From Gammaproteobacteria bacterium (GTDB taxonomy: Bacteria; Pseudomonadota; Gammaproteobacteria; UBA1113), in NCBI GenBank assembly GCA_044369355.1, contig JBIPMB010000002.1, forward strand, positions 1-34,025: DNA of 34,025 nt, given 5' to 3'. Made by a program: the position numbers and the translations under genes. Each line of letters begins with the position of its first letter. Positions within the stretch are counted from its first letter, which is position 1. Shown here piece by piece: positions 6,112 through 28,741 of the stretch. The notes under the pieces are model-generated. The model was not told the DNA's origin. It made no database searches and saw only the letters and a program-made list of their open reading frames with translations.

Positions 6112-7011
6112 ATGGAGAATAGATTTATGACAAATAGTAAAGAAGCGGATATTAGTTCAGCTGAAATGACGGCTTATTGGCGATCTTTGTATCCTAAGTT
6201 AAGTAGCGATACGCTGAGTATCAATTTGGCCAGTGCAGAGGGTATTCAGAAGGCAAAGGTATTTGAAGAAAGATTTAAATATCCATTATTAGGGCGTAAG
6301 GTGAGTGTGCGCGCGGGGTTTATGCTACAGAAGGCCATAGAAATTCTGTCTACAGGGCTATATGATTCTTGTATTTCATTAGGATCTGGATTTTCTATGC
6401 TAACGTATATCCTTGCTGAGCAGTTGAATCGCGATAATGAAATGCCTATCCAATTTATTGATTTGGATCTTCCGGAAATAATCGAAGAAAGGAAGAGACG
6501 ACTTTCCAGATTAATTATAGATAGAAAGGTATCTGCTGATGTTGTTTCAACGATACAAAATATTGAGATAGACATTGAAGCAATGCATACAAATACTATT
6601 TCTTTTAAAGATGTTTTTCGGGATTGTAAAAGACCATTATTTATGATTGAAGGGTTAATATATTTTTTAACGGAAGATTGCGTTGAATGGCTTATGCAAC
6701 AGATTACACGTTATGATCTATCGGCTGTTATTTTTGATTATTGGCCTGAAAATGGAGTGAACGAGAGTTTATGTTTTCGTAATGCCATTCAGGCTATGGC
6801 AGGCTTTATGCCCGAAAATGTAAAAAGCTTTTGGAGTGATGAGGGAATTGCACAACTTTCTGGCCATTTTAAGCGGGTTGAAAATTTAAAGATCAAAAAT
6901 ATTGAAAACGAAATGTCAGAAGAAATGCTGGATACGCCTATGTTTATAGACAGTAATCAATTTTTCCCGGTTCAAATTTTTGTTGGTTTAGGGCCAAAGA
7001 ATAGTCAATAG
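6112..7011 (+). CDS. Class I SAM-dependent methyltransferase, leucine-carboxyl-methyltransferase (LCM/TcmP-like) family
   Basis: Motif I-like ISLGSGFSML, FIDLDLPEIIEERKRRL (family pattern E/D-x-D-x-P-x-v-i-x-x-K) and MIEGLIYFLTE (family pattern EGll-YL). It starts 16 nt after the MFS gene. Confidence 0.6.
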   Translation: MENRFMTNSKEADISSAEMTAYWRSLYPKLSSDTLSINLASAEGIQKAKVFEERFKYPLLGRKVSVRAGFMLQKAIEILSTGLYDSCISLGSGFSMLTYILAEQLNRDNEMPIQFIDLDLPEIIEERKRRLSRLIIDRKVSADVVSTIQNIEIDIEAMHTNTISFKDVFRDCKRPLFMIEGLIYFLTEDCVEWLMQQITRYDLSAVIFDYWPENGVNESLCFRNAIQAMAGFMPENVKSFWSDEGIAQLSGHFKRVENLKIKNIENEMSEEMLDTPMFIDSNQFFPVQIFVGLGPKNSQ

Positions 7012-7253: not shown

Positions 7254-8030
7254 ATGGTAATCTCTCCGCATGGAATAGTTACAATTTACAGCATTGATAC
7301 CGAAGCAAGCGTAAAACTCTTGCCGGTTGAGGTCACTGCCGCTAGATTTGTAAGCAAGGCCCCCGCGGCATGCGTAAAAGCCTTAAAAAAATCGGTCACG
7401 ATTGTTGAATTTGTAGACGATGTTCTCGTAGAAAGTGTAAAAGCCGTACCGACTTGGGTCACTGCTGTTAGATTTAATGGCGATGTTTCTCCAGAAAGTG
7501 TAGGAGCCTTACCGGCTTGGGTCACTAGGATTGTACTTGTAGGCAACATTTCCGCAGAAAGTGTAGGAGCCTTACCGGCTTGGGTCACGAGGGTTGTATT
7601 TGTAGGCGATGTTCCTGCAGAAAGTGTAGGGGCCTTACCGGCTTGGGTCACGACTGTTGTACTTGTAGGCGATGTCTCCGAAGCAAGCATAAAAGCCATA
7701 CCGGCTTCTGTTACTACCCTTAGATTTTGGAACAACGCCCCTGTTGCAACGACTGAAACTTTTTACGGATTAGATGTATTGGCTTATGCTGTTGCCGTTA
7801 GAGTCAATGATGAGGAAAGGCGCATAATAAAAAGCGATCTACCGCCATCGAAAAGGCGCAGAATCAACTACGAGGATCAAAATAAATTTACTAATTACAC
7901 AGCTTCAGACTTTGCTCCAGCTAATCCAGATACTGTGTTCAGGCAGCCAATCTCTTCTTCTTCTTTCTTCTATGAGCCCCCACAGAAACCACATGAACCA
8001 TTTTATCCAAAACAGATGACTAGGGGCTAA
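7254..8030 (+). CDS. Repeat protein with about seven 21-aa LRR-like (FNIP/BspA-like) repeats, followed by a tail with a basic KRRR patch and Pro/Tyr-rich end
   Basis: Repeating unit ESVGALPAWVT-x-[IV]V[LF]VG[DN][IV]S/P-A; PPSKRRRINYEDQ at 7851-7862; AGAGG lies about 8 nt upstream of the ATG. Confidence 0.75.
   Translation: MVISPHGIVTIYSIDTEASVKLLPVEVTAARFVSKAPAACVKALKKSVTIVEFVDDVLVESVKAVPTWVTAVRFNGDVSPESVGALPAWVTRIVLVGNISAESVGALPAWVTRVVFVGDVPAESVGALPAWVTTVVLVGDVSEASIKAIPASVTTLRFWNNAPVATTETFYGLDVLAYAVAVRVNDEERRIIKSDLPPSKRRRINYEDQNKFTNYTASDFAPANPDTVFRQPISSSSFFYEPPQKPHEPFYPKQMTRG
7494..7682 (+). repeat. Three near-identical in-frame 63-bp tandem repeats (core of the 21-aa repeat array spanning about 7320-7740)
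   Basis: gaaagtgtaggRgccttaccggcttgggtcac begins at 7494, 7557 and 7620. Confidence 0.9.
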
Positions 8031-15040: not shown

Positions 15041-16381
15041 GTGAAGCGATTGATATTTAAGACATTATTAGCCTGGGCTAGGGCGGATAAACATGACCCT
15101 TTGTTGCTCAGGGGCGCCAGACAAGTGGGTAAAACCTATATTGTGGAACAATTTGCACGTCAATATTTCCCCCATTTTGTGAATATTAACTTTGAATTGC
15201 AGCCGGAATTTAAGGCTTGTTTTAATCGTTTAGATCCACACGCTATTATCACCAGCATCGCAGCCTTAAAGCGACAGGCCATCGTGCCAAATGAAACCTT
15301 ATTGTTCCTAGATGAGATCCAACAATGCCCACAAGCGATCGTAGCCTTGCGTTATTTTAAGGAAAATATGCCGCAGTTACATGTGATTGGCGCGGGATCT
15401 TTATTAGAATTTACCTTAAACGATGAAAACCTACAAATGCCCGTAGGCCGTATACAATCACTCTATGTTAAACCTTTGTCATTTAGAGAATTCCTAATGG
15501 CCAATGGTTATGATCAAATCATCGATGTGTTAATGCAAGCAACGTTGCAAACGGGAGTTCCCGATGCCATTCATCAAGAGCTAGAGCGCTGTTTAAGAGA
15601 ATATTTTGTTTTAGGAGGAATGCCGGAAGTCGTGGCAGATTACCTGCAAAAGAAAGACTTAATCCAAAGCCAGATGAAACAGACTTCATTACTGAATATC
15701 TATCGCAGTGACTTTGGAAAATATGCTAAACAGACAAAACATAAATACATGCAGGTTCTATTTGACAAAGTGCCTGGACTCATTGGAACGCAAATTCAAT
15801 TCCAAAAAATAGATGCAGATGTGCATTCGCGTGAGCTCAAAGAGGCGCTAGGCTATTTGTGCAATGCGGGCATTATACATTGTGTTTATCACAGCAGTGC
15901 GTCTGGTTTGCCGTTAAAAAGTTTAATCAATGAGAAGAAATTTAAATTGATCTTTCTAGACATAGGTTTGATTAACGCTAGTGGATATTTAGATCCTTAT
16001 TTGATGCTCAATGAAAATTTAATGATGGCGAATCGCGGCGCATTGGCAGAACAATTTGTAGGTCAAGAATTACTAGCTTGTGCTGCCGATTATCTACCTG
16101 GAGAGTTATTTTATTGGCAGCGTGAAAAAACAGGCAGTATGGCGGAAGTAGATTATGTTATTAATGTGGATTCACAGATTGTTCCTATAGAAGTGAAATC
16201 TGGAAAAACGGGAACTTTGAGATCTTTACAGGTGTTTTTAGATGAAAAGAAACTGCCTTTTGGAGTGCGGCTCTCTTTAAAACCATTGGAATTTCATAAC
16301 CGAATATTATCTGTGCCATTGTATATGATCGAAGAATTGCCTAGGTTGGTAAGAGAATTGCGGCAATCTATTCATCAATAG
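15041..16381 (+). CDS. AAA+ ATPase of the COG1373 / DUF4143 family
   Basis: Walker A LLLRGARQVGKT, Walker B-like LLFLDEIQ, a C-terminal region typical of DUF4143 (EVDYVI...IPIEVKSG, PD-(D/E)xK-like), and a GTG start. Confidence 0.75.
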   Translation: MKRLIFKTLLAWARADKHDPLLLRGARQVGKTYIVEQFARQYFPHFVNINFELQPEFKACFNRLDPHAIITSIAALKRQAIVPNETLLFLDEIQQCPQAIVALRYFKENMPQLHVIGAGSLLEFTLNDENLQMPVGRIQSLYVKPLSFREFLMANGYDQIIDVLMQATLQTGVPDAIHQELERCLREYFVLGGMPEVVADYLQKKDLIQSQMKQTSLLNIYRSDFGKYAKQTKHKYMQVLFDKVPGLIGTQIQFQKIDADVHSRELKEALGYLCNAGIIHCVYHSSASGLPLKSLINEKKFKLIFLDIGLINASGYLDPYLMLNENLMMANRGALAEQFVGQELLACAADYLPGELFYWQREKTGSMAEVDYVINVDSQIVPIEVKSGKTGTLRSLQVFLDEKKLPFGVRLSLKPLEFHNRILSVPLYMIEELPRLVRELRQSIHQ

Positions 16382-18306: not shown

Positions 18307-21300
18307 TTATGCATAATCCACTTCAACACTTTCAATTATGTTGGACAACATTTTACTAGTAATATTCGGCCATTGAAAATTTAGCTGATTTAATATGTAA
18401 TTTGTTTTATCTTGAAAAATAACTACCTTAGCTAAATTCTTTATATTGGGTCGTAGCCACCCTTGATGCAGCATAAATAACTCGATTCGATTCGTGTTAT
18501 GGCTATTTTTTAGTTTTATTAAAATATCATCAATAAACTCAGCAAATGATATTTGTTTAATATTATTTCTATACGGATGTAGTAGGGTATATAAATTAGA
18601 CTTCTCGGGATGAAATACATGATATATTTGATTGTATAATCTTTTCTGATTAAATAATGTTATAATTGCGGCCGCGGTATAGTCAACGGGAGAGATCTCT
18701 ATTTCACGTAATTCTTGAGGAATTATGCCTAATTCTAGTATTGCTTTGACACATTGAATGAATGCATTATCTTCTATATTTTCTTGCGCTTTATGCGTTA
18801 CTGAATTAATAGCAATATTACCTATACGGTATATATTAGCTTTAACCCCATGTTCTCTATACTTAAGGACAGCTTCCTCTCCTTCATATTTAGTTTTGGT
18901 ATAAATGTTGTCTAAATTAGCATGAACATTATCTATAATATTTTCAGTGAAAATATTATAATCTTGATTTGAAATGCATGTATTTGCAAATACACCTATG
19001 GTAGAAACATAGTGGAAATCTTTACGGGTTGTTTTAGCCAGTTCAAGCAAATTAATGGTTGATTGTACATTGGCTTGATAAAAATCAATATATTCCCCAT
19101 AATGTTTAACCAAAGCTGCGCAATGAATAATGCTGTCAACATTACCTACTAAATTCTGATATGTCAATTCATCCAGCCCTAAATTAATCTGCGCAATATC
19201 AGATTTTAAAACAGTTAACCTATGTTTGTAATCATTTAAATTTACGCCAAAGTAATATTTAAATTTATTGTTAACTCGTTCATAAGCAGTTATATGTTCG
19301 GAAATTCTTACTAATAAGTATATCGTATGCTTGGTTTCTAGCAATAACTGATGCAAAATATGACAGCCTAAATATCCAGTAGCCCCGGTTAATAATATTT
19401 TACAAGCAGGCCTAGTTTCATTTTCAAATTCAAAAAGTTTAGCTTGTATTTGATATTGAGTTCGTTCATCTTCTATTGTTATATTATTATCTTCGTTGCC
19501 AGAATCCAATTTGGAATAGATTAATTTAATTTCTTCAAGTTTATCCACTAAATTAAAGTTGGCAGCTGAAGAAAGCTCAGCAAGTTTGGCTGGCGTCTTA
19601 AGTTCAAATATATTATTTAGCGTAATATTAAAGTAACGTTGTAATTTGAATAATAGTCTTATAGCCAATATGGAGTTACCACCCCATTTAAAAAAACTGT
19701 CGTTAATACCAATTTTCTTTACCGCCACCCCTAAAACATCCGCATAAATCGTACATATTCTTTGTTCTGATTCATTTCTTGGGCCTATATAATCATCTGT
19801 ATTGGCAATAGATTGCGGTTGAGGAAGTAATTTTATATCTAATTTGCCATTCCTAGTTAATGGGAATTCCTTCAGCCAAACAAAAGCATTTGGAACCATA
19901 TATTCAGGTAATTCGGATGCTAAATATGTTAGGATTAAATTTTCAGCTAATTTTGTGTCAGATATGTAATAAGCAACTAAGCGTTGCGTATTTCTACCTT
20001 TGATATCAGTTTGATCTTGGCATAATACCAAGGCTTGTTTTATTTCTGGATAGTTCGATAACGTAGTTTCTATTTCGTTTAACTCTATTCTTAAACCACG
20101 TATTTTTATTTGGCTGTCATTACGCCCTATGTATTCAACATTTCCATCAGGTAGATAACGAACTAAATCGCCCGTTTTATATAATCTACTATTTTTACCA
20201 CATTGCTTTTCTTTTTCAGTTTGAAATGGATTAGGTATAAACTTTTCAGCCGTTAATTGTGGTAGATTTAAATAACCTCTGGCTAAACCCACGCCGCCAA
20301 TATACAACTCACCTATCGCACCAATTGGAACTGGTTTTAAATGACTATCTAGAGCATATAGTGTAGATTGCTCCAATGGATAACCTATTGTAGTAAGTTT
20401 ATCGTGAGTTATTCGCTGATTTTTAAAGTCAGTAATGTCGTAACTTACTTCTCCGGCCTCAGTTGGCCCATAATAATTGATATATTTTATATCGATATTC
20501 TTGTCAACTAGTGACTTTCTAAACTTTTCCCCACTTAGATTTATTGTTTTTAATCTATTAAATATATCTTCTTTTTTAGGGTAACTCTGTATTACCTCTA
20601 ATTGAGAGGGAACAAAATGACAAAAGTTTATATTATTTCTCGTAATTAAGCTATTGATTTCATCTACATCAAATACGGATTTAGTAATATAAAGTGATGC
20701 TCCAGATAGTAAAGTCATAAATATATCGGAAAAAGATACGTCAAAAGTGTAATTGGTTTTAAATAGATATTTATCTCTGCTATTTATACCGTTTTTTTCG
20801 TTCATAGACATTATTCTAATAGTGGCGCCACAATGTTCTATCATAACTCCTTTGGGATTGCCGGTGGTGCCACTAGTATACATGACATAAACCAAATTCT
20901 TACTGGTTATATTTAATTTAGGATTATCTTTTATCTGTTGTTTTAGTTTATATTGTGTCTCATAGCTGTCTATAGACAAAATGTCTGTATAATGACTGGA
21001 TGTAGACTTGGTAAGTATATTATTGTAATGGCAATCATTTGTGATAACTACTTTTGCTTTTATATCTTCTAGTATATAGCGGATCCTTTTTTCAGGATAT
21101 GCCGGATCGATAGGTACGTAAGCAGCGCCAGCCTTCAGTATTGCTAATATGGCTATTAACATATATTGGCTTCGATTTAAGTGCAATGCAATTAAATCAT
21201 CGCCTTTAAGGTTGTAGTTAATTCTTAAATAATGAGCCAGTTGATTTGATTGCTCGTTTAATTCAGCATATGTTAATTTAATGCCTTCGTAAACGACAGC

Positions 21301-22698
21301 GATATTATTTGGTGTTTTGTCTACTTGGGCTTCAAATAATTCTTGGATAGTTTTGCTGGCTTTATAATACTCGTTAGTTTTATTCCAGCCATATACAATC
21401 TGGTTGTATTCCAACTTACTTAACACGGAATATTCATCTATCAGCTTATTGGTTATATTAGCACTTAAATCGTCCAAAATAGTTAAAAATATTTGTTCAT
21501 AATGGCGTATAAATTTTGTTAAAACATCTTCATCTATTTTTAATGTATTATATCTCACCCTAAAATTCGGTATATTCTCCAACATTTCTAGTTCGAAAAT
21601 AATTTTTACTGGCAAATCTATGTTAAATTCAGCATTTATTTTAAGTGTTTTTACATCAAGAAAATCAAAAGCCATATTTTTTAGATTTGTTTGAGCAAAC
21701 ATGATAGCCAATAAATCATTATTTACATTATGCATAATCTTATTTATCGGGTAATGGCTTGCATTTTGCCCCATAGACTTGATTGATTGGATAAAATCTT
21801 TATCTTGTTTAAACAAATCAATTATTCTTGCTGTAGCACTAAATTCATAAACATTAATGTTTGTATTAATCTGTGCGCCAGAGATTAAAGGTATGCCGCC
21901 TTTAATCGCTATAGGATAACTAAGCCCAATTTTATTGTTCCCAGTATACTTGTGCAGTAATATGGCCAATATACATTTGCTATAACTATATACTGTAGCG
22001 CCAAATTTTTTAGTTGTGTTAAGGAGTTTTTCAGTTATTTCTTGTGTAAGCTTAAATCTATATTCTTTAATATTACTTATATTGCTTTCAGATTTAACCC
22101 ATCTAAGATCAACCGATTCAACATCATTTAAGTATTTCCTCCAAAAAGGTTGATAAATACCATCATATTTTTCTAATTGTTTCTCAAGCAAGTCAGTGGT
22201 ATCTATTAGCATATTTTCTTGTTGCGACATAGTATAAGCTAATTTATATGAGGGTGAATTATAATAATTAGAGATTTCAGAGATTAGGGTATTGAATGAA
22301 CCCCCATCAATCAATAAATGATGCAGTACTAAGATAAATCTAAAGTTTCCACTAGCTTCAGTAAATAAAGCAAACCGGTATAAAGCTTTGGTTTCAATTT
22401 CAAATGGCACAGATACATAATTTAAAATTTGCTCTCGGGTATGAGGATATTTAAAATATTCAAGTTTAGGTATTTCTGTATTTTTTATCCAATACAACTT
22501 ATCTTCTATCTGTATGACATGGCTGTTTATAATTAAATAATCTGATGCAAATCGGTAAAGTGCACACTCTAATCGATTTACATCTAAATTAGCAGATAAA
22601 ACTTGATCAAATACTATATTGTATCGACTATTAGAAGGATCAAGTTTCCATTCATTATAAAATATTGTATGGTACGGCGATAGCTTTATCGTGTACAT
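18307..22698 (-). CDS. Single-module nonribosomal peptide synthetase, domain order C-A-T(PCP)-R (terminal thioester reductase)
   Basis: C domain HHLLIDGGS (about 22303-22326). A-domain cores are LTYAELN, LKAGAAYVPID, YTSGTTGNPKG (about 20849-20878), FDVS, NYYGPTE, GELYIGGVGLARGY, YKTGDL and NGKLD. PCP motif FFKWGGNSI (about 19672-19686). R domain LLTGATGYLGCHIL (about 19369-19390) and YTKTK. Confidence 0.92.
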   Translation of the reverse strand: MYTIKLSPYHTIFYNEWKLDPSNSRYNIVFDQVLSANLDVNRLECALYRFASDYLIINSHVIQIEDKLYWIKNTEIPKLEYFKYPHTREQILNYVSVPFEIETKALYRFALFTEASGNFRFILVLHHLLIDGGSFNTLISEISNYYNSPSYKLAYTMSQQENMLIDTTDLLEKQLEKYDGIYQPFWRKYLNDVESVDLRWVKSESNISNIKEYRFKLTQEITEKLLNTTKKFGATVYSYSKCILAILLHKYTGNNKIGLSYPIAIKGGIPLISGAQINTNINVYEFSATARIIDLFKQDKDFIQSIKSMGQNASHYPINKIMHNVNNDLLAIMFAQTNLKNMAFDFLDVKTLKINAEFNIDLPVKIIFELEMLENIPNFRVRYNTLKIDEDVLTKFIRHYEQIFLTILDDLSANITNKLIDEYSVLSKLEYNQIVYGWNKTNEYYKASKTIQELFEAQVDKTPNNIAVVYEGIKLTYAELNEQSNQLAHYLRINYNLKGDDLIALHLNRSQYMLIAILAILKAGAAYVPIDPAYPEKRIRYILEDIKAKVVITNDCHYNNILTKSTSSHYTDILSIDSYETQYKLKQQIKDNPKLNITSKNLVYVMYTSGTTGNPKGVMIEHCGATIRIMSMNEKNGINSRDKYLFKTNYTFDVSFSDIFMTLLSGASLYITKSVFDVDEINSLITRNNINFCHFVPSQLEVIQSYPKKEDIFNRLKTINLSGEKFRKSLVDKNIDIKYINYYGPTEAGEVSYDITDFKNQRITHDKLTTIGYPLEQSTLYALDSHLKPVPIGAIGELYIGGVGLARGYLNLPQLTAEKFIPNPFQTEKEKQCGKNSRLYKTGDLVRYLPDGNVEYIGRNDSQIKIRGLRIELNEIETTLSNYPEIKQALVLCQDQTDIKGRNTQRLVAYYISDTKLAENLILTYLASELPEYMVPNAFVWLKEFPLTRNGKLDIKLLPQPQSIANTDDYIGPRNESEQRICTIYADVLGVAVKKIGINDSFFKWGGNSILAIRLLFKLQRYFNITLNNIFELKTPAKLAELSSAANFNLVDKLEEIKLIYSKLDSGNEDNNITIEDERTQYQIQAKLFEFENETRPACKILLTGATGYLGCHILHQLLLETKHTIYLLVRISEHITAYERVNNKFKYYFGVNLNDYKHRLTVLKSDIAQINLGLDELTYQNLVGNVDSIIHCAALVKHYGEYIDFYQANVQSTINLLELAKTTRKDFHYVSTIGVFANTCISNQDYNIFTENIIDNVHANLDNIYTKTKYEGEEAVLKYREHGVKANIYRIGNIAINSVTHKAQENIEDNAFIQCVKAILELGIIPQELREIEISPVDYTAAAIITLFNQKRLYNQIYHVFHPEKSNLYTLLHPYRNNIKQISFAEFIDDILIKLKNSHNTNRIELFMLHQGWLRPNIKNLAKVVIFQDKTNYILNQLNFQWPNITSKMLSNIIESVEVDYA

Positions 22699-22743: not shown

Positions 22744-23733
22744 TCATTGCTCGGACAATTTAGCAAAGGATTCAGGGAGTAAATCGCCGTGTGCAAAATT
22801 GAGAGATATGTGTTGCTCGATTTGTAATAATTCTGCGGAAGAAAGATTCAAATCAGCAGCATTAACGTTTTCTTCCAAATGCGCGACTTGTTTTGTACCC
22901 GCGATAGCGACTACATTATCAGCTTGATTTAGAACCCAAGCCAATGCAATCTGACCAGGGGTTACGCCTTGATTATGTCCTATATCTCTTAATACAGATA
23001 TCATCTGCAAATTGTGTTTGATATTTTCAGGTTGAAATCGCGGTAAAACTCTGCGTAAATCATCTTTTTCTAAAGTATCTAAGCTCGCTATAGTCCCGGT
23101 AAAAAAACCTTTGCCCATAGGTCCATGCGCCACAAAGCCAATGTTAAGCGATTGACACAGAGGAATGATTTCTTCTTCAGGTTTCCTGTGCCATAGAGAA
23201 TATTCGGATTGAATTGCGGTTAAAGGATGAATACTATGTGCTTTGGCAATGGTCTTTGCAGAAACTTCAGATAAACCTATATGGCGTACTTTACCTTCTG
23301 CGACCAGTTCAGATAAAGCGCCTACGCTTTCTTCGATGGGTGTATTGGGATCCACTCTATGTAAATACAGTAAATCTAGATAATCGACTTCTAGACGTTT
23401 TAAAGTTGCTATACACGCGTCTTTAATATACTTTGGGTTTCCATTCACACCTAAGACTTCGCCAGTTTCAGAACTTCTCACCAGACCACACTTGCTGGCA
23501 ATCACAACTTTATCTCTAAATCCTTTAATGGCGCCTGCCAACAATCGTTCATTATGCCCTAAGCCATAGCAATCTGCAGTATCAAAATGGGTTACTCCCA
23601 ATTCGAAAGCTCGGTGTATCGTTTTAACGGATTCTAGATCGTTGGTTTTACCATAGTATTCAGACATTCCCATACAGCCTAATCCAAGATTAGAAATTTG
23701 TAATTTTTTTATGCCTAAAGTTTTATTTTTCAT
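22744..23733 (-). CDS. Aldo-keto reductase (NADPH-dependent oxidoreductase, Tas/YajO-like)
   Basis: LGLGCMGMS, FDTADCYG, the catalytic Asp/Tyr/Lys/His context (D..Y, ASKCG, LYLHRVD) and IAGTKQVAHLEEN. The ATG at 23733 (MKNKTLGIKKLQIS) gives the canonical AKR N-terminus, whereas the ORF track extends 47 aa further to 23874. The gene ends 45 nt upstream of the NRPS start. Confidence 0.85.
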   Translation of the reverse strand: MKNKTLGIKKLQISNLGLGCMGMSEYYGKTNDLESVKTIHRAFELGVTHFDTADCYGLGHNERLLAGAIKGFRDKVVIASKCGLVRSSETGEVLGVNGNPKYIKDACIATLKRLEVDYLDLLYLHRVDPNTPIEESVGALSELVAEGKVRHIGLSEVSAKTIAKAHSIHPLTAIQSEYSLWHRKPEEEIIPLCQSLNIGFVAHGPMGKGFFTGTIASLDTLEKDDLRRVLPRFQPENIKHNLQMISVLRDIGHNQGVTPGQIALAWVLNQADNVVAIAGTKQVAHLEENVNAADLNLSSAELLQIEQHISLNFAHGDLLPESFAKLSEQ

Positions 23734-24121
23734 AATAATTTCCACAAAGCGTAAAATATCTTTGTTTAACCATTGATTATCTATACCATTATACTTCAAG
23801 ATGTGAATTAAACTAACCGTGATGTTATATTCCACAGGATAGTTCGGTCTGCTCACGAGCCAATTTACATGCATTTTTAAGTATAATCGTATTAATACTA
23901 ACGGTACCTTGCTTTATATATGCCGAGTCTACACTAATTTTAATTTTTTATCTAGCAAATCAGCCATCATAATCACACTGTGTTAATGCCGTATTAATGC
24001 TTTTTATATTTTGACAAGATTTCAGCTTGCACAAGCATACTATTCATCTATATACTCGGCGCTGCGTATGAGCTAACGCGGGCCGGAGACATAGAAGCTC
24101 AATTCAGAGGAGTATACACAC

Positions 24122-24931
24122 ATGGTCGAAACAATACCTACCCCAAAGACAGATGTTACATCAGATGAAAAGCAGTTGGAGTATGAACAAAAATTAGCAA
24201 CGGCTTCAGCCATAGTAAGGAGTATTGCGCATGAACTGAACACACCACTCTCCGCTATAGACATGGGAGTCAAGGGTGCAAAAAACTATTTTTTAGTGCT
24301 GTTAGAAAATTATCAACTGGCGAAAAAGAATAATTTACCTGGACTAAAACTCATTCCGCCTAAGCATTTCGAAGTATTATCTACTTTATTTGACGATCTA
24401 GAGAGAGAGGTCGATTTTAGTAAGCTTTTTATAAAAATCCTCATTCAAAATATGAAGCGGGATCTAACCCAAGAAGACAGCAAGAAAGTGCAAAATATAT
24501 ACACTTGCATAGAAGAAGCATTGCTACAGTACCCTTTTGCGTATAGAGAAGAAAGTCTAGTCCATTGGGATTCCAAGAAGAGCTTTTCCTTTATTGGTTC
24601 TGATTTTCTCATTATATATGTTTTATTTAATCTTTTAAAAAATTCTCTTTATCAAATAGCAAAAGCGGGCAAAGGTCGGATTCAGTTGTGGCAAACTATT
24701 GAGCATAATGCCAATGTTTTACATTTCAAGGATACCGCTACCGGGATTCCAGAAGATATAAAAAGCACCTTATTTCAACCCTTTGCAAGTAACCGCCAGC
24801 ATGGTATCGGCTTAGGGTTGGCTTTCTGCAATAAGGTAATGCAAAAACTAGGCGGGAGTATTGAGTGTTGCTCTGTTGAGGGAGAATATACTGAATTTTT
24901 GCTCTATTTCCCGCCAATTAAGAAACCATAA
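24122..24931 (+). CDS. Small soluble histidine kinase (HisKA plus HATPase_c only; no TM or recognisable sensor domain)
   Basis: H-box SIAHELNTPLSAI, N-box LFNLLKNSLYQI, G1 DTATGIP, G2 HGIGLGLAFC; GAGGAG Shine-Dalgarno sequence. It is divergent from the AKR-NRPS-kinase operon. Confidence 0.8.
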   Translation: MVETIPTPKTDVTSDEKQLEYEQKLATASAIVRSIAHELNTPLSAIDMGVKGAKNYFLVLLENYQLAKKNNLPGLKLIPPKHFEVLSTLFDDLEREVDFSKLFIKILIQNMKRDLTQEDSKKVQNIYTCIEEALLQYPFAYREESLVHWDSKKSFSFIGSDFLIIYVLFNLLKNSLYQIAKAGKGRIQLWQTIEHNANVLHFKDTATGIPEDIKSTLFQPFASNRQHGIGLGLAFCNKVMQKLGGSIECCSVEGEYTEFLLYFPPIKKP

Positions 24932-24936
24932 GGTTG

Positions 24937-25099
24937 AGGGACTGTTGACAATTGGTTTGTCGGCTGCAAAATGAGTAAAAAAAGTCCAAATATTAGCAAA
25001 TTTTTGTCAAATATTGCCCGATATTCTCCTCAAATTTGCTAATATTTTGCCTGGCTTTCCTCATTTTTCGCTTCGACAAACCAATTGTCAACAGTCCCT
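24937..25099. repeat. 163-bp long imperfect palindrome with perfect 26-bp terminal inverted repeats (MITE-like element or giant terminator hairpin)
   Basis: agggactgttgacaattggtttgtcg (24937-24962) is the exact reverse complement of 25074-25099. Inner blocks aaaatgag and aaatattagcaaattt also pair. It starts 6 nt after the kinase stop codon. Confidence 0.8.
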
Positions 25100-25100
25100 A

Positions 25101-25132
25101 GTTTTGTCTAAAATTACTCCCCAATTCTGAAC
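25101..25132 (-). repeat. Third, inverted copy of the AATTGGGG-N-AATTTTAGACAAA motif seen at 14968-15022
   Basis: The reverse complement reads gttcagaattggggagtaattttagacaaaac. It matches aattggggggcaattttagacaaa at all but 2 positions. Confidence 0.75.
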
Positions 25133-25196: not shown

Positions 25197-25258
25197 TTCA
25201 AACGAAGATACGGTCTATCATCAATCACGAATAACCCAAACCGCCAAGGAGTGCCAGG

Positions 25259-28200
25259 ATGTTTGTTATTAGGTATGTGCAATTTTTATTTACAGCTATT
25301 ATTTTGGGATTTCAATGGATGGCGCTACAGTGGATGAGGGTGGCGCAAGGTTCTGTCTCGCAAAATGAGAGTGCACCTAGAAGTGTTACTACTACCGATG
25401 AGCCCGATCAGGGGCCCTTACTGATTCCTTCACTGATGAAAGTATCTCCACTTTTGCCGCTGTCGCTTTTTGCGGGCAGTGTAGTTTGGAGCCGATCCAT
25501 AGCCGTTAGAGGAATCAGCGCACATAAACAAAATTTACCGTTGGCACAATTCTATCAAAATAGTGTAGGCTTTATGCGTAGAGAGGCGGCATTTAACTTA
25601 GCTTTGGGCCTATGGATAGGAATAGTTGAATTTTATCGTGCAGAAAAAGAGGAGCCGCCCGAATTTCTAATTTTCTTTTTAACGACACTATTCTCAGAAT
25701 TATCGCTGAACTTGTCTGCAGGTTTTTATGACCTTTGCACCCAGAGAAACGGAGGAGCCTATTTTTTTTCAAAGTTAAAAAATATTCTTTTACACACTAC
25801 GTTTCCCAGTGCCGCCACAGCACTGCTGACGTATCGTTATTCATTCGACATCTTATATAGGCGAGATGCTATAGCCAATAAATGGCTGTGGATGGCTTTG
25901 GCAGGGGCAGGACCACAAGTCCCTAGGCAAATAGCACTATTCTGCTTTTCAAAAGCGGCACAGGTACTGTCTTTTTATTTACGGCCCAATAATGTTATTG
26001 CAATAACGGATGAAGAATCATTGCGGGCTTACTGTTCACAAGCGGATGACGAAGCATCTTTCACCGAGGGTGAAATATCGGAAACGGAGACAGAGATAGA
26101 GGAATCCTTGTCCTTATTGTCGGGTCCGGTTGAATCTAGGCCCAGTCACGTTGTATTCGGAAGTTCTATCCCTTGGTTATTATTGGCGCCTATAGCGACA
26201 ATGGTATCCTGGTTTGCGGCAGCGATATTGTGTGCATGGGAAGATAAATCGCTGCAAGATGATAAATACAATGACCTTTCCTTGCCCTTACTACAAGTGG
26301 CAACGGGTATGACTGTAGGTGTAGTCGCAGTAAATGTGCTATGGGGAACGGTGGTGGGTGTAAAAACGCTGTGTCATAAACGGCATCAACCGTTGCATGA
26401 GAAGGAAGAAGAAAAAGATGAAGATGATACTCAGGATGAACGGGTGGATGATTTTCAGGAAAGCTCAAGGCGCAAGAAGGTCAAACCTAATTTCGTGCCC
26501 AATCTTAAGTTAGCGGGAATAAAGGCGCTACCTTCGTCTGCTACGCTTACCGCTAGAGAAAAACGAGTTGGGGGAATAGAGATACAGCGTGAGTTGTATC
26601 GTAAACTCGGGACTCAGTTAATGACCTCGGAGCATGACTTCAATTACAATGAAGCTAGAGATTCTCTAGATAAAGCCAGTAAATTGGGTGATCAAATAGC
26701 CTGGTGCTATTTGGGATTTTTATATGAATATGGCTTAGGCGTTACGATATCCTTGCCTGCCGCTGCATATTGCTATGCTAAAGGCAATGAAGACAATGCA
26801 TTGATTAAACTGATACAAGGCGTATGTTACTTGCGGCGGTTAGAAGTTGGTGCATTAAGTTTTGTAGAAGACGCTATAGAGATGTTGATAAAGGCGATTG
26901 AACTGAGCAAAGCGTGTAAACTTAAAGATTGGCAAAGTACGATTGATTTTTTAAACCGTATTGCAGATACTCCAGAGGACGTGAGCGCTAATCTTATCTT
27001 AGCTTTGGTCTATGAATTAGGTTTGCTGGATGTAAATAGCAATACAGGCCGTGCCGCGCAGTACTATGAAAAAGTTGCTGAACGCGGTGAATCCTGGACT
27101 CAATATAACCTAGGGATGATCTGTCAAAATAAAATATGGCCCCGTAAAAATGCTAAAAAGGCCTACGACTGGCTTCGTTTGTCTGTAGAGCCACGCCATA
27201 AAGTGGTAGAGCCATTGTATTGGTATAATTTAGGTCTTGCCTATCGAGATGGCGTGGGGGTGACACAAAATTATAGCGAAGCAATAAAATGCTTTGAATC
27301 TGCACGTGAGTTAGGCAGTGGGGTTGCTTATAATGCTTTAGCAACGATGTATGAAAATGGATGGGGCTGTGAGCGAGATGTGGATAAAGCGGCTCAATTT
27401 AAAGTTGAAAGTGAGCGTAAACGCGACAGTGGGCCGGTCAATCTTCTTCTGATAGAAGAAGAGGCGTTACCTGACCTAACACTAAAATTAAAACGCAAAA
27501 GCAGAGAAATGAAAGTAGGCTTCGTTGAGCTCGTTGATGAATTGATCCCGGTTAGGGTTTTGTGTGATTTTCATGATGATAGGCGAATCGATCACTTACC
27601 TATCCAGAAAGGCGAAATTTTGCGGGTACGTATCGAAAAAAAGAACTGGCTATATGCCATAAATGCACAAGGCTTAGAAGGATTGGTGCCTAGAAATGCG
27701 ATACGTCTTAAAAAAGAAAAGGGTGCTCGAGCAGGATCTAGTCAAAATTTATCCAATGGCTATAAGGTTATAGATGAAAGAGAGCTTAGCGATCAAAAAG
27801 ATTTAGACCAAAGTTTTTATACTAAAGTTTCTTTAGCTTTTTGGAAAGACCAGCAAATTGTGGTGAAAGAATTATTAGCGCATGCTCCGCCAGAAGAAGC
27901 AAATAATTTTGCAATGGAAGGGGAATTGATGACGCAATTAGACCATCCTAATATTGTAAAGCTGTTGGGTTTTGTCAATTCTCCACTCAAATTCATTATA
28001 GAATACATGCCCTTTGGCTCAGTATCGAAATGTTTGCAGAGAAAAGATCCCCGGGTTTCTCCTGAAAAACGACTTGATATTGCATTGGATATAGCCAAAG
28101 CACTTAACTACTTGCACGATAAAACAATATTGCATCGCGATGTAAAAAGCCAGAATGTTTTGCTGGATGCCGTCTGCGCAAAATTAGCAGACTTTGGCAT

Positions 28201-28741
28201 AGCAGTGCAATGCGAAGAGGGGACTATAATGTATGTGGGTAGCCGCAGAGGTACCTTAGATTGGCTTAGTCCTGAATTACTGGAAAGAGATGTTTGTGTG
28301 TATACGCGAGAAAGTGATGTTTATGCTTACGGTGTTTTTCTATGGGAGTTATTTTCGCATCAGGAAGCGCAGTTGGTTAAAGACTATCTTAATCAATCAC
28401 AGCCTTGTTTTCCAAAGATGCCACATGAGATCGTAATATTAATCCAGGGGTGTTGTGCGAAAGATCCTCAGCGTCGGCCTACCATGCCTTATATTGTAGA
28501 CGAGTTACTAAGACGGAAGGAAAACGCTTCCAAGGAAAAAGGAAAAGAAGAAGAGAGCACATCCGTATCTTTGGAAGAAGAACTTATTTTAGAAGAGCCG
28601 TCTGGCTTAAATGCTGCTAGTCGCTTGGGTGGCGAAGGATCTTCCTGGGGTGGTGGTGGCAAAAACCATTTTTTCCAACAAGCCAGTTCATCTGGTAGCA
28701 CCCAAACGCAGGTCCAACAATATAAACACTATTCTGTTTAA
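25259..28741 (+). CDS. Multidomain eukaryote-like protein: N-terminal polytopic hydrophobic region, acidic linker, Sel1/TPR-like repeats, SH3-like domain, TKL-type protein kinase domain and Glu-rich C-terminal tail
   Basis: Sel1 repeats span about 26689-27400 (AWCYLGFLYEYGLGV, WYNLGLAYRDGVGVTQNYSEAIKCF, AYNALATMYENGWGCERDVDKAAQF). The SH3-like segment spans about 27541-27710 (VRVLCDFHDD..LPIQKGEILRV..NWLYAI..GLEGLVPRNAIRL). Kinase motifs are VVK, E, HRDVKSQNVLL (28133-28156), DFG (28189-28197), SPE, DVYAYGVFLWELFS and DPQRRP. Confidence 0.85.
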   Translation: MFVIRYVQFLFTAIILGFQWMALQWMRVAQGSVSQNESAPRSVTTTDEPDQGPLLIPSLMKVSPLLPLSLFAGSVVWSRSIAVRGISAHKQNLPLAQFYQNSVGFMRREAAFNLALGLWIGIVEFYRAEKEEPPEFLIFFLTTLFSELSLNLSAGFYDLCTQRNGGAYFFSKLKNILLHTTFPSAATALLTYRYSFDILYRRDAIANKWLWMALAGAGPQVPRQIALFCFSKAAQVLSFYLRPNNVIAITDEESLRAYCSQADDEASFTEGEISETETEIEESLSLLSGPVESRPSHVVFGSSIPWLLLAPIATMVSWFAAAILCAWEDKSLQDDKYNDLSLPLLQVATGMTVGVVAVNVLWGTVVGVKTLCHKRHQPLHEKEEEKDEDDTQDERVDDFQESSRRKKVKPNFVPNLKLAGIKALPSSATLTAREKRVGGIEIQRELYRKLGTQLMTSEHDFNYNEARDSLDKASKLGDQIAWCYLGFLYEYGLGVTISLPAAAYCYAKGNEDNALIKLIQGVCYLRRLEVGALSFVEDAIEMLIKAIELSKACKLKDWQSTIDFLNRIADTPEDVSANLILALVYELGLLDVNSNTGRAAQYYEKVAERGESWTQYNLGMICQNKIWPRKNAKKAYDWLRLSVEPRHKVVEPLYWYNLGLAYRDGVGVTQNYSEAIKCFESARELGSGVAYNALATMYENGWGCERDVDKAAQFKVESERKRDSGPVNLLLIEEEALPDLTLKLKRKSREMKVGFVELVDELIPVRVLCDFHDDRRIDHLPIQKGEILRVRIEKKNWLYAINAQGLEGLVPRNAIRLKKEKGARAGSSQNLSNGYKVIDERELSDQKDLDQSFYTKVSLAFWKDQQIVVKELLAHAPPEEANNFAMEGELMTQLDHPNIVKLLGFVNSPLKFIIEYMPFGSVSKCLQRKDPRVSPEKRLDIALDIAKALNYLHDKTILHRDVKSQNVLLDAVCAKLADFGIAVQCEEGTIMYVGSRRGTLDWLSPELLERDVCVYTRESDVYAYGVFLWELFSHQEAQLVKDYLNQSQPCFPKMPHEIVILIQGCCAKDPQRRPTMPYIVDELLRRKENASKEKGKEEESTSVSLEEELILEEPSGLNAASRLGGEGSSWGGGGKNHFFQQASSSGSTQTQVQQYKHYSV

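What the first reader, a model, noticed from the sequence alone, without database searches (positions are those of the whole stretch)
25259..28741. Membrane-anchored Sel1, SH3 and TKL-kinase chimera: a eukaryote-like signalling protein in a bacterial genome
One 1160-aa ORF combines six elements.
- About 6 or more hydrophobic segments in the first 370 aa.
- An acidic stretch (EKEEEKDEDDTQDE).
- Several Sel1-type repeats.
- A segment with the SH3 pattern (ALYDY-like VLCDFH, then KGEILRV, then a W-containing strand, then G-x-G-LVP-x-N).
- A complete eukaryotic protein-kinase core whose HRDVKSQN, DFG, SPE and DVYAYGVFLWEL motifs resemble the tyrosine-kinase-like (TKL) group.
- A Glu-rich tail (KEKGKEEESTSVSLEEELILEE).

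An SH3 domain directly N-terminal to a TKL kinase is the mixed-lineage-kinase layout of eukaryotes. The C-terminal Glu-rich region resembles the E-block described for Dot/Icm type IVB substrates. The glycine-rich loop is degenerate, reading L-D-Q-S-F-Y-T-K-V where GxGxFGxV is expected, although the VAIK Lys, alphaC Glu, HRD and DFG residues are all present. This suggests atypical nucleotide handling. The overall picture is consistent with capture of a host (amoebal) gene fragment fused to bacterial Sel1 and membrane modules.
Basis: partly seen in the sequence, partly recalled or inferred. Interest (0 to 1): 0.78.

Follow-up and report, generated by a model that had tools for sequence, protein, structure and literature searches.

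The report
Membrane-anchored Sel1–SH3–TKL-like kinase
An uncultured gammaproteobacterium encodes a 1160-residue protein joining a new membrane anchor, Sel1 repeats, a eukaryote-type SH3 domain and a tyrosine-kinase-like Ser/Thr kinase; it evolves far faster than its neighbours and is most likely a host-directed effector, but secretion is unproven.

Summary
ORF 25259-28741 (+) is intact and has a good ribosome-binding site.
- an all-helical hydrophobic N-terminal domain
- a Sel1 solenoid
- a canonical eukaryote-type SH3
- a TKL/TK-like kinase with all catalytic residues but a degenerate glycine loop
- a Glu/Ser/Gln-rich tail

- The kinase is TKL-like, not PknB-like.
- Its nearest relatives are only 30-37% identical, and they include kinases on bacterial contigs as close as any eukaryotic TKL.
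- The gene has native GC content and sits at the same chromosomal position in related metagenome-assembled genomes (MAGs). Recent capture from an amoeba is therefore not supported.
- It is not an MLK, because the leucine zipper and CRIB are absent.
- The Glu block lies 47-68 residues from the C-terminus, which is not the canonical E-block position.
- No type IV secretion system could be linked to the organism.

New findings:
- Only five full-length members exist in the databases searched.
- The N-terminal domain has one other relative among 1.84 billion representative proteins.
- Orthologues are 41-55% identical, while all neighbouring genes are 81-95% identical.

Best reading (about 0.5): a translocated, membrane-inserted effector kinase. 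This is a new variant of a known kind, of moderate interest.

The parts
25246..25251 (+). Shine-Dalgarno sequence AAGGAG, 7 nt upstream of the ATG
   Evidence: Read directly from the sequence. Promoter-like hexamers lie at 24945-24972 and 25085-25114 (consensus matches only).
25259..28741 (+). Complete ORF of 1160 aa plus stop codon
   Evidence: An identical protein is also present in an independent ENA assembly.
25259..25978 (+). N-terminal hydrophobic helical domain, first part (aa 1-240); about 6 candidate membrane helices; family-specific
   Evidence: Hydropathy peaks. 38-69% identity among orthologues, with about 60 invariant residues in aa 1-400. No Pfam family and no PDB relative. An exhaustive HMM search finds only the family, one fragment and one stand-alone 363-aa protein.
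25979..26149 (+). Acidic Ser/Thr/Glu-rich loop (aa 241-297), poorly conserved and probably disordered
   Evidence: 16-56% identity to orthologues. No secondary structure in the AF2 model.
26150..26383 (+). Hydrophobic helical hairpin (aa 298-375): two strongly hydrophobic helices joined by a 13-residue acidic loop and followed by a basic cluster (KTLCHKRH)
   Evidence: KD peaks of 2.14 and 1.77. Helices 304-333 and 341-373 in the model. The positive-inside rule places the C-terminal domains on the cytoplasmic face (inference).
26384..26575 (+). Acidic/basic linker (aa 376-439) that includes EKEEEKDEDDTQDE
   Evidence: 18-29% identity to orthologues.
26576..27493 (+). Sel1-repeat helical solenoid (aa 440-745)
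   Evidence: Pfam Sel1 E 1.2e-18, 3 repeats; found in 5/5 orthologues. PDB Sel1 proteins and SEL1L match at E 4e-27 to 1e-10. About 20 helices in the model.
27536..27712 (+). Canonical (eukaryote-type) SH3 domain (aa 760-818)
   Evidence: Profile versus PDB. Pfam SH3_9, SH3_1 and SH3_2 are sub-threshold in some members. Five beta strands at pLDDT 80-85. Foldseek top hits are SH3-containing kinases. W797, P811 and N813 are invariant.
27794..28507 (+). TKL/TK-like protein kinase domain (aa 846-1083)
   Evidence: PF07714 170 bits versus PF00069 140 bits. Best PDB sequence matches are EGFR, JAK, CTR1, MLK1, Roco4, TAK1 and RIPK1. AF2 pLDDT 90-98. Foldseek hits c-Src, Csk, Fes, JAK3 and LIMK1 at E 1e-19 to 1e-21.
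27803..27829 (+). Degenerate glycine-rich loop L-D-Q-S-F-Y-T-K-V (aa 849-857)
   Evidence: Column-by-column comparison with the 119 homologues aligned.
28133..28156 (+). Catalytic loop HRDVKSQN (aa 959-966), a Ser/Thr-type Lys with the TKL-style K-S-x-N pattern
   Evidence: D961, K963 and N966 are invariant. One orthologue reads HLD.
28190..28198 (+). DFG motif (aa 978-980)
   Evidence: Invariant in the family and in all 124 aligned kinases.
28508..28738 (+). Low-complexity C-terminal tail (aa 1084-1160): Glu-rich block at 1092-1113, then a Ser/Gly/Gln-rich stretch with conserved SWG and FFQQ motifs and a basic end
   Evidence: 17-35% identity to orthologues.

Best explanation
This is a host-directed, membrane-inserted effector kinase of an uncultured, probably Legionellales-like, host-associated gammaproteobacterium.

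Proposed mechanism:
1. The protein is made in the bacterium. It is probably parked in the inner membrane with its C-terminus in the cytoplasm. It is then exported into a eukaryotic host cell, most plausibly by a type IVB system.
2. The family-specific N-terminal helical hydrophobic domain anchors it in a host (vacuolar) membrane.
3. The Sel1 solenoid and the SH3 domain face the host cytosol and recruit host proteins. The SH3 would bind proline-rich motifs.
4. The TKL-like kinase phosphorylates the recruited proteins on Ser/Thr.

Shown: the domain identities, the Ser/Thr-type catalytic loop, the conservation of all catalytic residues, restriction to one small clade, and an evolutionary rate far above that of the neighbouring genes.

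Inferred: the topology, export, host-membrane insertion, the targets, and whether the Gly-loop variant is fully active.
For: - Sel1, a canonical SH3 and a TKL-like kinase occur in one polypeptide. None of the bacterial SH3b-type Pfam families was hit.
- SEL1 and ankyrin repeats are enriched in amoeba-associated bacteria (PMC7542358).
- The window also encodes a 459-aa ankyrin-repeat protein next to hypF/hypB/hypA. This resembles an arrangement described for the Legionellales symbiont Centrionella, which carries Dot/Icm and many ePK effector candidates.
- The best named relatives of the window's transketolase are Rickettsiella and Aquirickettsiella, at 63-65% identity.
- Orthologues of this protein are 41-55% identical. 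TKT, GAPDH, PGK, PK, PBP1A, AKR, two histidine kinases and the NRPS in the same genomes are 81-95% identical. Yet the ORF is intact and the catalytic residues are invariant in all five. That is the pattern expected of a host-interaction gene in an arms race.
- About 80 transmembrane effectors are reported for L. pneumophila. They pass through an inner-membrane intermediate and need a cytoplasmic C-terminal signal (C-in), with short periplasmic loops (PMC11602083). The terminal hairpin here has a 13-residue acidic loop followed by a basic cluster, which predicts C-in.
- The tail is disordered and rich in Glu, Ser and Gln.
Against: - No secretion system is encoded in the window or in the related loci fetched. 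The order-level placement is weak, because Xanthomonadaceae transketolases are also about 65% identical.
- The Glu-rich block is 47-68 residues from the C-terminus, and the last 35 residues of the window protein have no Glu.
- Eight to ten hydrophobic helices is heavy cargo for a translocated protein.
- The closest kinase relatives include kinases on bacterial contigs, one in a mobile-element region, with no sign of host association.
- The gene is single-copy at a fixed chromosomal position, which equally fits a resident signalling protein.
- One orthologue (P0002) lacks 20 residues of the first hydrophobic helix. This is awkward for any fixed polytopic topology.
Confidence: 0.5

Rival explanations
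1. Resident bacterial membrane-anchored signalling kinase. The protein stays in the inner membrane as a polytopic protein with cytoplasmic Sel1-SH3-kinase modules, and it phosphorylates bacterial proteins as part of an endogenous signalling pathway.
For: - It has a fixed syntenic position beside core glycolysis/pentose-phosphate genes in all relatives and native GC/GC3.
- The N-terminal membrane domain is a bacterial invention. Its one stand-alone relative lies next to prfB-lysS on a bacterial contig.
- The nearest kinase relatives include bacterial ones.
- A small histidine kinase lies immediately upstream in three genomes.
Against: - Housekeeping signalling proteins in the same genomes, the two histidine kinases, are 85-87% identical, while this protein is 41-55% identical.
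- The SH3 is of the eukaryotic type and matched none of the bacterial SH3b families.
- It is not a PknB/Stk1-type kinase: 99.8 bits against a cut-off of 450, and no PASTA domain.
- The family is confined to one tiny clade.
Confidence: 0.25
2. Anti-phage or conflict-system kinase. A membrane-anchored sensor kinase, comparable to Stk2, PD-T4-6 or MAD6, triggers abortive infection by phosphorylating bacterial or phage proteins. It evolves fast because of a phage arms race.
For: - The PADLOC mad6 model gives 197 bits, and PD-T4-6 models up to 105 bits.
- The region downstream of tkt is variable. It holds a PDC-S01-type AAA_14/DUF4143 gene, with a different one at the same place in L005/L006.
- One close kinase relative (P0199) lies among integrases and transposases.
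- Divergence is rapid.
Against: - The mad6 match is non-specific. Eukaryotic HT1, ZAK, Fer and an RLK score 212-284 bits on the same model, higher than this protein.
- NCBIfam MADS6 gives 85.9 bits against a cut-off of 460.
- No other MADS or defence partner genes are adjacent.
- The gene is present in every relative examined at one locus, rather than patchily, as defence genes usually are (the latter point is my general knowledge).
Confidence: 0.1
3. Catalytically impaired scaffold (pseudokinase-like) in this particular orthologue. With G1, G2 and G3 of the glycine loop all replaced (D, S, T), the window protein binds nucleotide poorly and acts mainly as a membrane-tethered Sel1/SH3 scaffold.
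For: The window protein has none of the three glycines, and G2 is Gly in 108 of the 119 homologues aligned. One orthologue has HLD instead of HRD.
Against: K870, E887, D961, K963, N966 and D978 are invariant across sequences that are otherwise only about 50% identical. That argues for selection on catalysis. Three of the five orthologues keep G2. The beta1-beta2 hairpin is modelled with pLDDT 95-97.
Confidence: 0.15

Closest known systems
Eukaryotic mixed-lineage kinases (MLK1-4/MAP3K9-11, ZAK/MAP3K20; TKL group)
   Same: - The SH3 domain lies directly N-terminal to a TKL-type kinase, with a linker of about 30 residues.
- It has the HRDxKSxN catalytic loop, GTxxW[LM][AS]PE, and DVY[AS][FY]G[VI]xLWE.
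- The MLK1 kinase domain is among the best solved-structure matches (E 6e-26).
- ZAK is among the named hits and falls in the same loose NJ cluster.
   Different: - Identity is 37% or less.
- No leucine zipper or CRIB follows the kinase; there is only a 77-residue low-complexity tail.
- The SH3 profile matches adaptor SH3s best, not MLK SH3s.
- This protein has a polytopic membrane domain and Sel1 repeats, which MLKs lack.
- There is no evidence that SH3 and kinase were inherited together as one unit.
Legionella Dot/Icm effector kinases LegK1-LegK4 and LegK7
   Same: These are eukaryotic-like Ser/Thr kinases encoded by intracellular gammaproteobacteria and used on host targets (PMC7542358).
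   Different: The LegK1 NCBIfam model gives 38.9 bits against a cut-off of 550. To my knowledge no LegK carries a comparable SH3 + Sel1 + multi-pass anchor. Translocation of this protein has not been shown.
Stand-alone TKL-like kinases on bacterial contigs (P0190-P0199; the MAD6/PD-T4-6 kind)
   Same: They are the closest relatives of the kinase domain (27-33% identity, 127-164 bits for P0190-P0199). Most score higher on PF07714 than on PF00069; P0194 and P0205 do not. P0191, P0192 and P0199 lie on bacterial contigs, and the P0194 contig looks bacterial.
   Different: They are short single-domain proteins (292-470 aa for the five whose domains or contigs were examined) with normal GxGxxG loops, except P0194. 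They have no Sel1, SH3 or membrane domain.
Sel1-repeat host-interaction proteins (Legionella LpnE/EnhC, Helicobacter HcpB/HcpC, SEL1L)
   Same: They share the Sel1 solenoid. Solved Sel1 proteins, SEL1L and HcpC match at E 4e-27 to 1e-12, and HcpB more weakly at about 1e-3.
   Different: Those are soluble or secreted repeat proteins with no catalytic domain.
Transmembrane T4BSS effectors (for example SidF) of Legionella
   Same: They combine hydrophobic helices with a cytoplasm-facing C-terminus and short periplasmic loops (PMC11602083).
   Different: There is no sequence similarity. The N-terminal domain here is a family of its own.
Multidomain ePK effector candidates of Candidatus Centrionella anaeramoebae (Legionellales, UBA12402)
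   Same: These are eukaryotic-like kinases fused to repeat or signalling domains in a Legionellales symbiont. Its hydrogenase-maturation genes are also interrupted by an ankyrin-repeat gene.
   Different: The architectures described there are GTPase-ankyrin-kinase and the like. No SH3-kinase or this membrane domain is mentioned (0 occurrences of 'SH3'). No link between that genome and this window was established.

Membership tests
Eukaryotic-type protein kinase superfamily (ePK / Hanks-type fold) | Significant match to the kinase-domain profiles, and a bilobal fold | tested here: met
   PF07714 170.2 bits (GA 23.1) and PF00069 139.8 bits (GA 31.7). AF2 pLDDT is 90-98 over the domain. Foldseek E is about 1e-19 to 1e-21, with TM (target-normalised) 0.74-0.84 to kinase-domain-only chains (JAK, ABL1, LIMK1).
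Eukaryotic-type protein kinase superfamily (ePK / Hanks-type fold) | Catalytic residues: beta3 Lys, alphaC Glu, HRD Asp, catalytic-loop Asn, DFG Asp | tested here: met
   K870, E887, D961, N966 and D978 are invariant in all five orthologues and align with the invariant or near-invariant columns of 124 kinases.
Eukaryotic-type protein kinase superfamily (ePK / Hanks-type fold) | Glycine-rich loop GxGxxG | tested here: not met
   The window reads D850-Q-S852-F-Y-T855. G2 is kept in only 3 of 5 orthologues.
TKL (tyrosine-kinase-like) group | Sequence signatures: PF07714 scores above PF00069; HRDxKSxN; GTxxW[ML][AS]PE; DVY[SA][FY]GxxLWE; C[CW]xxxPxxRP | tested here: met
   That these motifs are diagnostic of the group rests on established kinase classification (Hanks & Hunter; Manning), cited from memory.
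TKL (tyrosine-kinase-like) group | Phylogenetic placement inside eukaryotic TKL families | tested here: inconclusive
   NJ with 200 bootstraps gives family monophyly 199/200. The sister is the probably bacterial P0194 in 134, an oomycete TKL in 43 and a conventional bacterial STK in 1. All distances are 1.34 or more. The family sits in a TKL-like assemblage that also holds bacterial sequences. The reference set was similarity-selected, and NJ is a crude method.
Mixed-lineage kinases (MLK) | SH3 - kinase - leucine zipper - CRIB architecture | tested here: not met
   The SH3-kinase order is present. Only a 77-aa low-complexity tail follows the kinase, and no further Pfam domain is found.
Canonical SH3 domain | Profile similarity to SH3 families | tested here: met
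   The family profile versus PDB gives canonical SH3 domains in almost every one of the 60 best listed matches (the last two are not), best E 2.6e-6. Pfam SH3_9 (23.3 bits) and SH3_1 (19.4 bits) fall below their gathering scores of 30 and 22.9. SH3_9 and SH3_2 are each seen in 2 of 5 members.
Canonical SH3 domain | Five-stranded beta-barrel with the conserved Trp and the Pro of the 3-10 region | tested here: met
   Strands at aa 763-767, 787-791, 797-801, 807-811 and 815-817, pLDDT 80-85. W797, P811 and N813 are invariant. Foldseek's best hits are SH3-containing kinases aligned over about 440 columns. The ALYDY tyrosines are only partly kept, and the final Tyr of the SNY motif is Ala (read from the sequence).
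Sel1 repeat proteins | Multiple Sel1 repeats above the Pfam threshold | tested here: met
   67.3 bits against GA 30.7, with 3 repeats. Found in 5/5 orthologues. PDB matches at 4e-27.
Dot/Icm (type IVB) translocated effector | The organism encodes a Dot/Icm system | not testable with these tools
   Only 34 kb of the genome is available, plus short contigs of relatives. No dot/icm gene is in any of them.
Dot/Icm (type IVB) translocated effector | C-terminal secretion signal, for example a Glu-rich E-block within roughly the last 10-25 residues | tested here: not met
   The Glu-rich block is at aa 1092-1113, that is 47-68 residues from the end. The last 35 residues of the window protein contain no Glu, and orthologues have 1-3 scattered Glu. 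The canonical position is quoted from memory (Huang et al. 2011). Dot/Icm signals are diverse, so this result weakens the claim but does not exclude it.
Dot/Icm (type IVB) translocated effector | Experimental translocation into host cells | not testable with these tools
   This needs a reporter assay.
LegK effector kinase families | Match to the curated LegK1 equivalog model | tested here: not met
   NF043056 gives 38.9 bits against a cut-off of 550.
MADS defence kinase MAD6 | Match above the curated cut-off, and specificity of the match | tested here: not met
   NF047741 gives 85.9 bits against a cut-off of 460. PADLOC mad6 gives 197 bits, but eukaryotic HT1 (284), ZAK (263), Fer (259) and an RLK (212) score higher.
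PknB/Stk1-type bacterial Ser/Thr kinases | Match to the equivalog, PASTA domains, and clustering with conventional bacterial STKs | tested here: not met
   NF033483 gives 99.8 bits against a cut-off of 450, and there is no PASTA domain. Such kinases are sister in 1/200 bootstraps, at distance 2.2-2.4.

The most novel reading that the evidence does not exclude
The protein is a bacterially evolved 'receptor-like kinase mimic'. A previously undescribed polytopic membrane domain is inserted into a host-cell membrane after translocation. It presents an SH3-TKL kinase module that was assembled within bacteria from bacterial TKL-like kinases rather than copied from a host MLK. This would mean convergent, or even ancestral, assembly of the SH3-TKL signalling architecture in bacteria, combined with an exceptionally fast arms-race evolution of the whole protein.
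Probability: 0.12. Interest if true: 0.8.

Novelty: new variant of a known kind. Interest (0 to 1): 0.5.

Why it matters
Eukaryotic-like kinases, Sel1 repeats and ankyrin repeats are standard tools of intracellular bacteria. A canonical SH3 fused directly to a TKL-like kinase, tethered by a private multi-pass membrane domain, appears to be undescribed. I found only five full-length members in searches of 5.8 billion protein clusters, 1.84 billion representative proteins and two contig collections.

If the protein is translocated, it would be a membrane-resident kinase that carries its own adaptor domains. That would make it a compact model for how a pathogen rewires host phospho-signalling at a vacuole.

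The finding also bears on the origin of TKL kinases. The nearest relatives of this 'eukaryote-like' kinase are at least as often bacterial as eukaryotic, so resemblance to TKLs should not be read as host gene capture.

The 41-55% versus 81-95% identity contrast with adjacent genes marks this locus as a candidate for arms-race evolution. The degenerate glycine loop, set against otherwise perfect catalytic residues, is a testable biochemical oddity.

Tried and rejected
1. A full-length AF2 model from the 5-sequence alignment had mean pLDDT 36 and pTM 0.25. It was used only for rough helix positions, and nothing about the N-terminal fold can be concluded from it.
2. The strong PADLOC mad6 hit (197 bits) looked like a lead to a defence system. 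The control with bona fide eukaryotic TKL/TK kinases (212-284 bits) showed that the model is generically TKL-like, so the lead was rejected.
3. The first bootstrap run of the NJ tree was corrupted by undefined distances (NaN) and was discarded. It was repeated with capped distances.
4. The N-terminal-domain profile found nothing in the PDB.
5. The metagenome contig scan found no further family member, only one distant kinase.
6. Searching papers for the MAG accessions (VFJT01, VFJV01, GCA_009885935, JAJYCX01, bin names) returned nothing. Cluster look-ups added no taxon names beyond Aquirickettsiella. Order-level taxonomy and the presence of a T4SS therefore remain unresolved.
7. Recent horizontal transfer was rejected on composition (GC/GC3 equal to core genes) and on synteny. 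The neighbouring NRPS gene at 30.7% GC is the compositionally foreign element, not this gene.
8. Eukaryotic contamination or a chimeric assembly was rejected. The gene has bacterial neighbours on both sides, a Shine-Dalgarno site, an identical copy in a second assembly and four full-length orthologues.

Full report
**Observation**

The window contains one intact ORF of 1160 codons at 25259..28741 on the + strand. AAGGAG sits 7 nt before the ATG. The stop codon lies 9 bp from the convergent stop of a PBP1A gene. An identical protein occurs in a second, independent assembly.

- Hydropathy peaks (19-residue Kyte-Doolittle score of 1.5 or more) fall around aa 1-19, 54-72, 136-154, 298-325 and 340-371.
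- The acidic stretch lies at about aa 381-394.
- Pfam finds Sel1 repeats (E 1.2e-18), PK_Tyr_Ser-Thr (E 7e-50, 170 bits) ahead of Pkinase (140 bits), and sub-threshold SH3_9 and SH3_1.
- The Glu-rich block is at aa 1092-1113.

**SH3**

Pfam alone is inconclusive, at 23.3 and 19.4 bits, both below the gathering scores. I therefore built a profile of aa 752-826 from the five orthologues. Searched against all PDB sequences, almost all of the 60 best listed matches are canonical eukaryotic SH3 domains (the last two are not). These include Jouberin (2.6e-6), Grb2, Crk, CED-2, SNX9, CD2AP and Csk.

An AF2 model of aa 745-1100, made with a 124-sequence alignment, reached mean pLDDT 88.9 and pTM 0.80. 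It has five beta strands in the SH3 segment at pLDDT 80-85. Foldseek ranks c-Src, Csk, Fes, Btk and Abl at the top. Most of these are SH3-containing kinases aligned over about 440 columns (Fes has no SH3 and aligns over about 345). Kinase-only JAK3 and LIMK1 structures follow. W797, P811 and N813 are invariant. No bacterial SH3b-type family was matched. The SH3 call is sound.

**Kinase**

All catalytic residues (K870, E887, D961, K963, N966, D978) are invariant in the family.
- The catalytic loop HRDVKSQN carries the Ser/Thr-type Lys.
- GTLDWLSPE, DVYAYGVFLWEL and CCAKDPQRRP are TKL/TK-style signatures. Their classification value is taken from established kinase literature, quoted from memory.
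- The best solved-structure matches by sequence are EGFR, JAK, CTR1, TYK2, MLK1, Csk, Roco4, FAK, Eph, TAK1 and RIPK1.
- The glycine loop is truly degenerate. At the three Gly columns, which are Gly in 97, 108 and 93 of the 119 homologues aligned, the window has D, S and T. Three orthologues keep the middle Gly.

**Where the kinase comes from**

A profile search with the kinase domain returned no relative above 37-40% identity over most of the domain. Named hits are mostly eukaryotic TKL/TK kinases: plant RLK/Pelle, HT1, ZAK/MAP3K20, an oomycete kinase, and nematode TKs.

The best unnamed hits are bacterial or look bacterial.
- P0191 lies on a 196-kb bacterial contig beside two more kinases, one with an MLKL_N domain.
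- P0192 sits in a tightly packed prokaryotic gene array.
- P0194 lies next to an ABC-F ATPase, on a short contig that looks bacterial.
- P0199 lies among integrases and transposases.

In an NJ analysis of 107 kinase domains with 200 bootstraps:
- The family is monophyletic in 199 replicates.
- Its sister is P0194 in 134, the oomycete TKL in 43, and a conventional multidomain bacterial STK in 1.
- Mean distances are 1.35-1.7 to TKL-like sequences of either domain of life, 1.7-2.2 to AGC/STE/Aurora kinases, and 2.2-2.4 to conventional bacterial STKs.

A eukaryotic donor cannot be named, however, and bacterial TKL-like kinases are at least as close. The tree is crude (NJ, with a similarity-selected reference set) and the family sits on a long branch.

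**A false lead**

PADLOC's mad6 model scored 197 bits. As a control I scored bona fide eukaryotic kinases on the same model. HT1 gave 284, ZAK 263, Fer 259, the oomycete kinase 232 and an RLK 212. The model is generically TKL-like. NCBIfam MADS6 gives only 85.9 bits against a cut-off of 460. The protein is not a MAD6. It also fails the LegK1 (38.9 vs 550) and Stk1/PknB (99.8 vs 450) models.

**The family and its N-terminal domain**

A search of 5.8 billion protein clusters found only four other full-length proteins. They are 1127-1150 aa long, 41-54% identical, and have the same architecture end to end.

An exhaustive HMM search of 1.84 billion representatives with the N-terminal 400 residues found only these four, one 93-aa fragment, and one 363-aa stand-alone membrane protein (E 1e-5). 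That protein has no Pfam family and lies on a bacterial contig next to prfB-lysS. The domain has no PDB relative. Genome and metagenome contig scans added no new member. The anchor is thus a private, bacterial module.

Its last two helices form a hairpin with a 13-residue acidic loop, followed by the basic cluster KTLCHKRH. By the positive-inside rule this places Sel1-SH3-kinase on the cytoplasmic side. That topology is an inference and is needed in any case for access to ATP.

**Genomic context and evolution**

The window is an ordinary gammaproteobacterial chromosome segment. In order along the window it encodes:
- an ankyrin-repeat protein
- hypF, hypB and hypA
- MFS, LCM-like and UbiA genes
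- pyk-pgk-gap-tkt
- an AAA_14/DUF4143 gene
- a PAS histidine kinase
- a low-GC single-module NRPS with a reductase domain
- an aldo-keto reductase
- a small histidine kinase
- this gene
- PBP1A and pilMNO

In every relative the gene lies just beyond tkt. The NRPS block is inserted between them in the window lineage. GC and GC3 (42.4% / 37.0%) match the core genes, whereas the NRPS is 30.7% GC.

The most striking result concerns evolutionary rate. Between the same genomes, TKT, GAPDH, PGK, PK, UbiA, PBP1A, AKR, both histidine kinases and the NRPS are 81-95% identical. This protein is 41-55% identical. The divergence is spread over all domains, at 46-70% identity in the Sel1, SH3 and kinase regions, and is extreme in the linkers and tail, at 15-35%. 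The ORF remains intact and the catalytic residues are invariant. This indicates function retained under very rapid, probably diversifying, evolution.

**Organism**

The transketolase has a tight group of 80-94% relatives, all unnamed metagenomic sequences. Identity then drops to 63-65%, where the named hits are mostly Rickettsiella and Aquirickettsiella (Legionellales). Xanthomonadaceae appear at the same level. The related MAGs are labelled only 'Gammaproteobacteria bacterium' or 'Proteobacteria bacterium'.

A 2026 preprint on the Legionellales symbiont Centrionella describes hydrogenase-maturation genes interrupted by an ankyrin-repeat gene, a complete Dot/Icm system and many multidomain ePK effector candidates. 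The resemblance is suggestive, but I could not link that genome to this window.

**Mechanism**

The best-supported reading (about 0.5) is a host-directed effector.
- The protein is anchored by its hydrophobic domain, first in the bacterial inner membrane and after export in a host membrane. This matches what is described for Legionella transmembrane effectors, which need a cytoplasm-facing C-terminal signal and short periplasmic loops (PMC11602083).
- The Sel1 and SH3 modules recruit host proteins for Ser/Thr phosphorylation.
- Support comes from the domain repertoire, the ankyrin-containing and probably host-associated genome, the arms-race-like rate, and the disordered polar tail.
- Against it: no secretion system was seen, the Glu block is 47-68 residues from the end, the hydrophobic load is heavy, and bacterial kinases are the closest relatives.

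The rivals are:
- a resident inner-membrane signalling kinase (about 0.25)
- a phage-defence kinase (about 0.1)
- cutting across all of these, the possibility that the window orthologue is catalytically weakened by its glycine-free loop (about 0.15)

**Comparison with known systems, and novelty**

The protein works like, but is not a member of, the MLKs, because it has no leucine zipper or CRIB. It also does not belong to the LegK, MAD6 or PknB families. It belongs to the known category of eukaryotic-like multidomain kinases of host-associated bacteria. Its architecture and its membrane domain are new and extremely rare, so I rate it a new variant of a known kind.

The claims of amoebal gene capture and of an E-block are not supported.

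Interest is moderate (0.5). A specialist would find the SH3-TKL fusion, the private anchor and the rate contrast noteworthy. Function and secretion remain conjectural.

Noticed in passing
window 18307-22698 (-), with 22744-23874 (-): A single-module NRPS (C-A-T-reductase, 1463 aa) sits next to an aldo-keto reductase. Its 30.7% GC contrasts with about 42-47% for core genes, so it looks like an inserted island. It is conserved in two related contigs (81-89% identity) and lies between tkt and the kinase gene only in this lineage.
   Followed up: partly
window 21-1400 (-) next to 1578-4865 (-): A 459-aa ankyrin-repeat protein (Ank E 5e-55) lies directly beside hypF-hypB-hypA. A recent preprint describes an ankyrin gene embedded in the hydrogenase-maturation cluster of the Legionellales symbiont Centrionella. 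No link between the two genomes was established.
   Followed up: partly
window 15041-16381 (+); L005 3246-4412: An AAA_14/DUF4143 ATPase matches the PADLOC candidate defence family PDC-S01 at E 1e-146. A different AAA_14/DUF4143 gene, with no tblastn match at 1e-10, occupies the same slot after tkt in a related genome. This suggests an integration hotspot.
   Followed up: partly
L009 6001-9991: Three tandem TKL-like kinase genes lie on a 196-kb bacterial contig. The third one carries an N-terminal MLKL_N (necroptosis executioner-like) domain.
   Followed up: no
window 28508-28738 and the orthologue C-termini (alignment A1 columns about 1200-1254): The otherwise divergent tail keeps short motifs: SWG, FFQQ, and a basic [KR][KR]x[ST]-like end (YKHYSV, YKHFTF, RRHSFG, RRRSEPF, RRLSRG). 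The end motif resembles a basophilic-kinase phosphorylation site. Its function is unknown.
   Followed up: no
L001 (protein P0002), aligned to window aa 11-30: One orthologue lacks 20 residues of the first hydrophobic helix. If this is a real deletion, it would flip the topology of a strictly polytopic protein. It may instead be an assembly or start-site artefact.
   Followed up: no
window 24122-24931 (+): A 269-aa histidine kinase (HisKA + HATPase_c, with no sensor or membrane domain) lies immediately upstream on the same strand. It is conserved there in two related contigs (85% identity) but is absent from the locus in two others.
   Followed up: partly
L010 358-1449 (protein P0311): A stand-alone 363-aa membrane protein is the only relative of the N-terminal domain outside the family. 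It has no Pfam family and lies next to prfB-lysS on a bacterial contig.
   Followed up: partly
window 7254-8030 (+) and 6112-7011 (+): There is a 258-aa ORF with no Pfam match, and a 299-aa protein with a weak leucine carboxyl methyltransferase (LCM) match. Both lie between the MFS transporter gene and ubiA.
   Followed up: no
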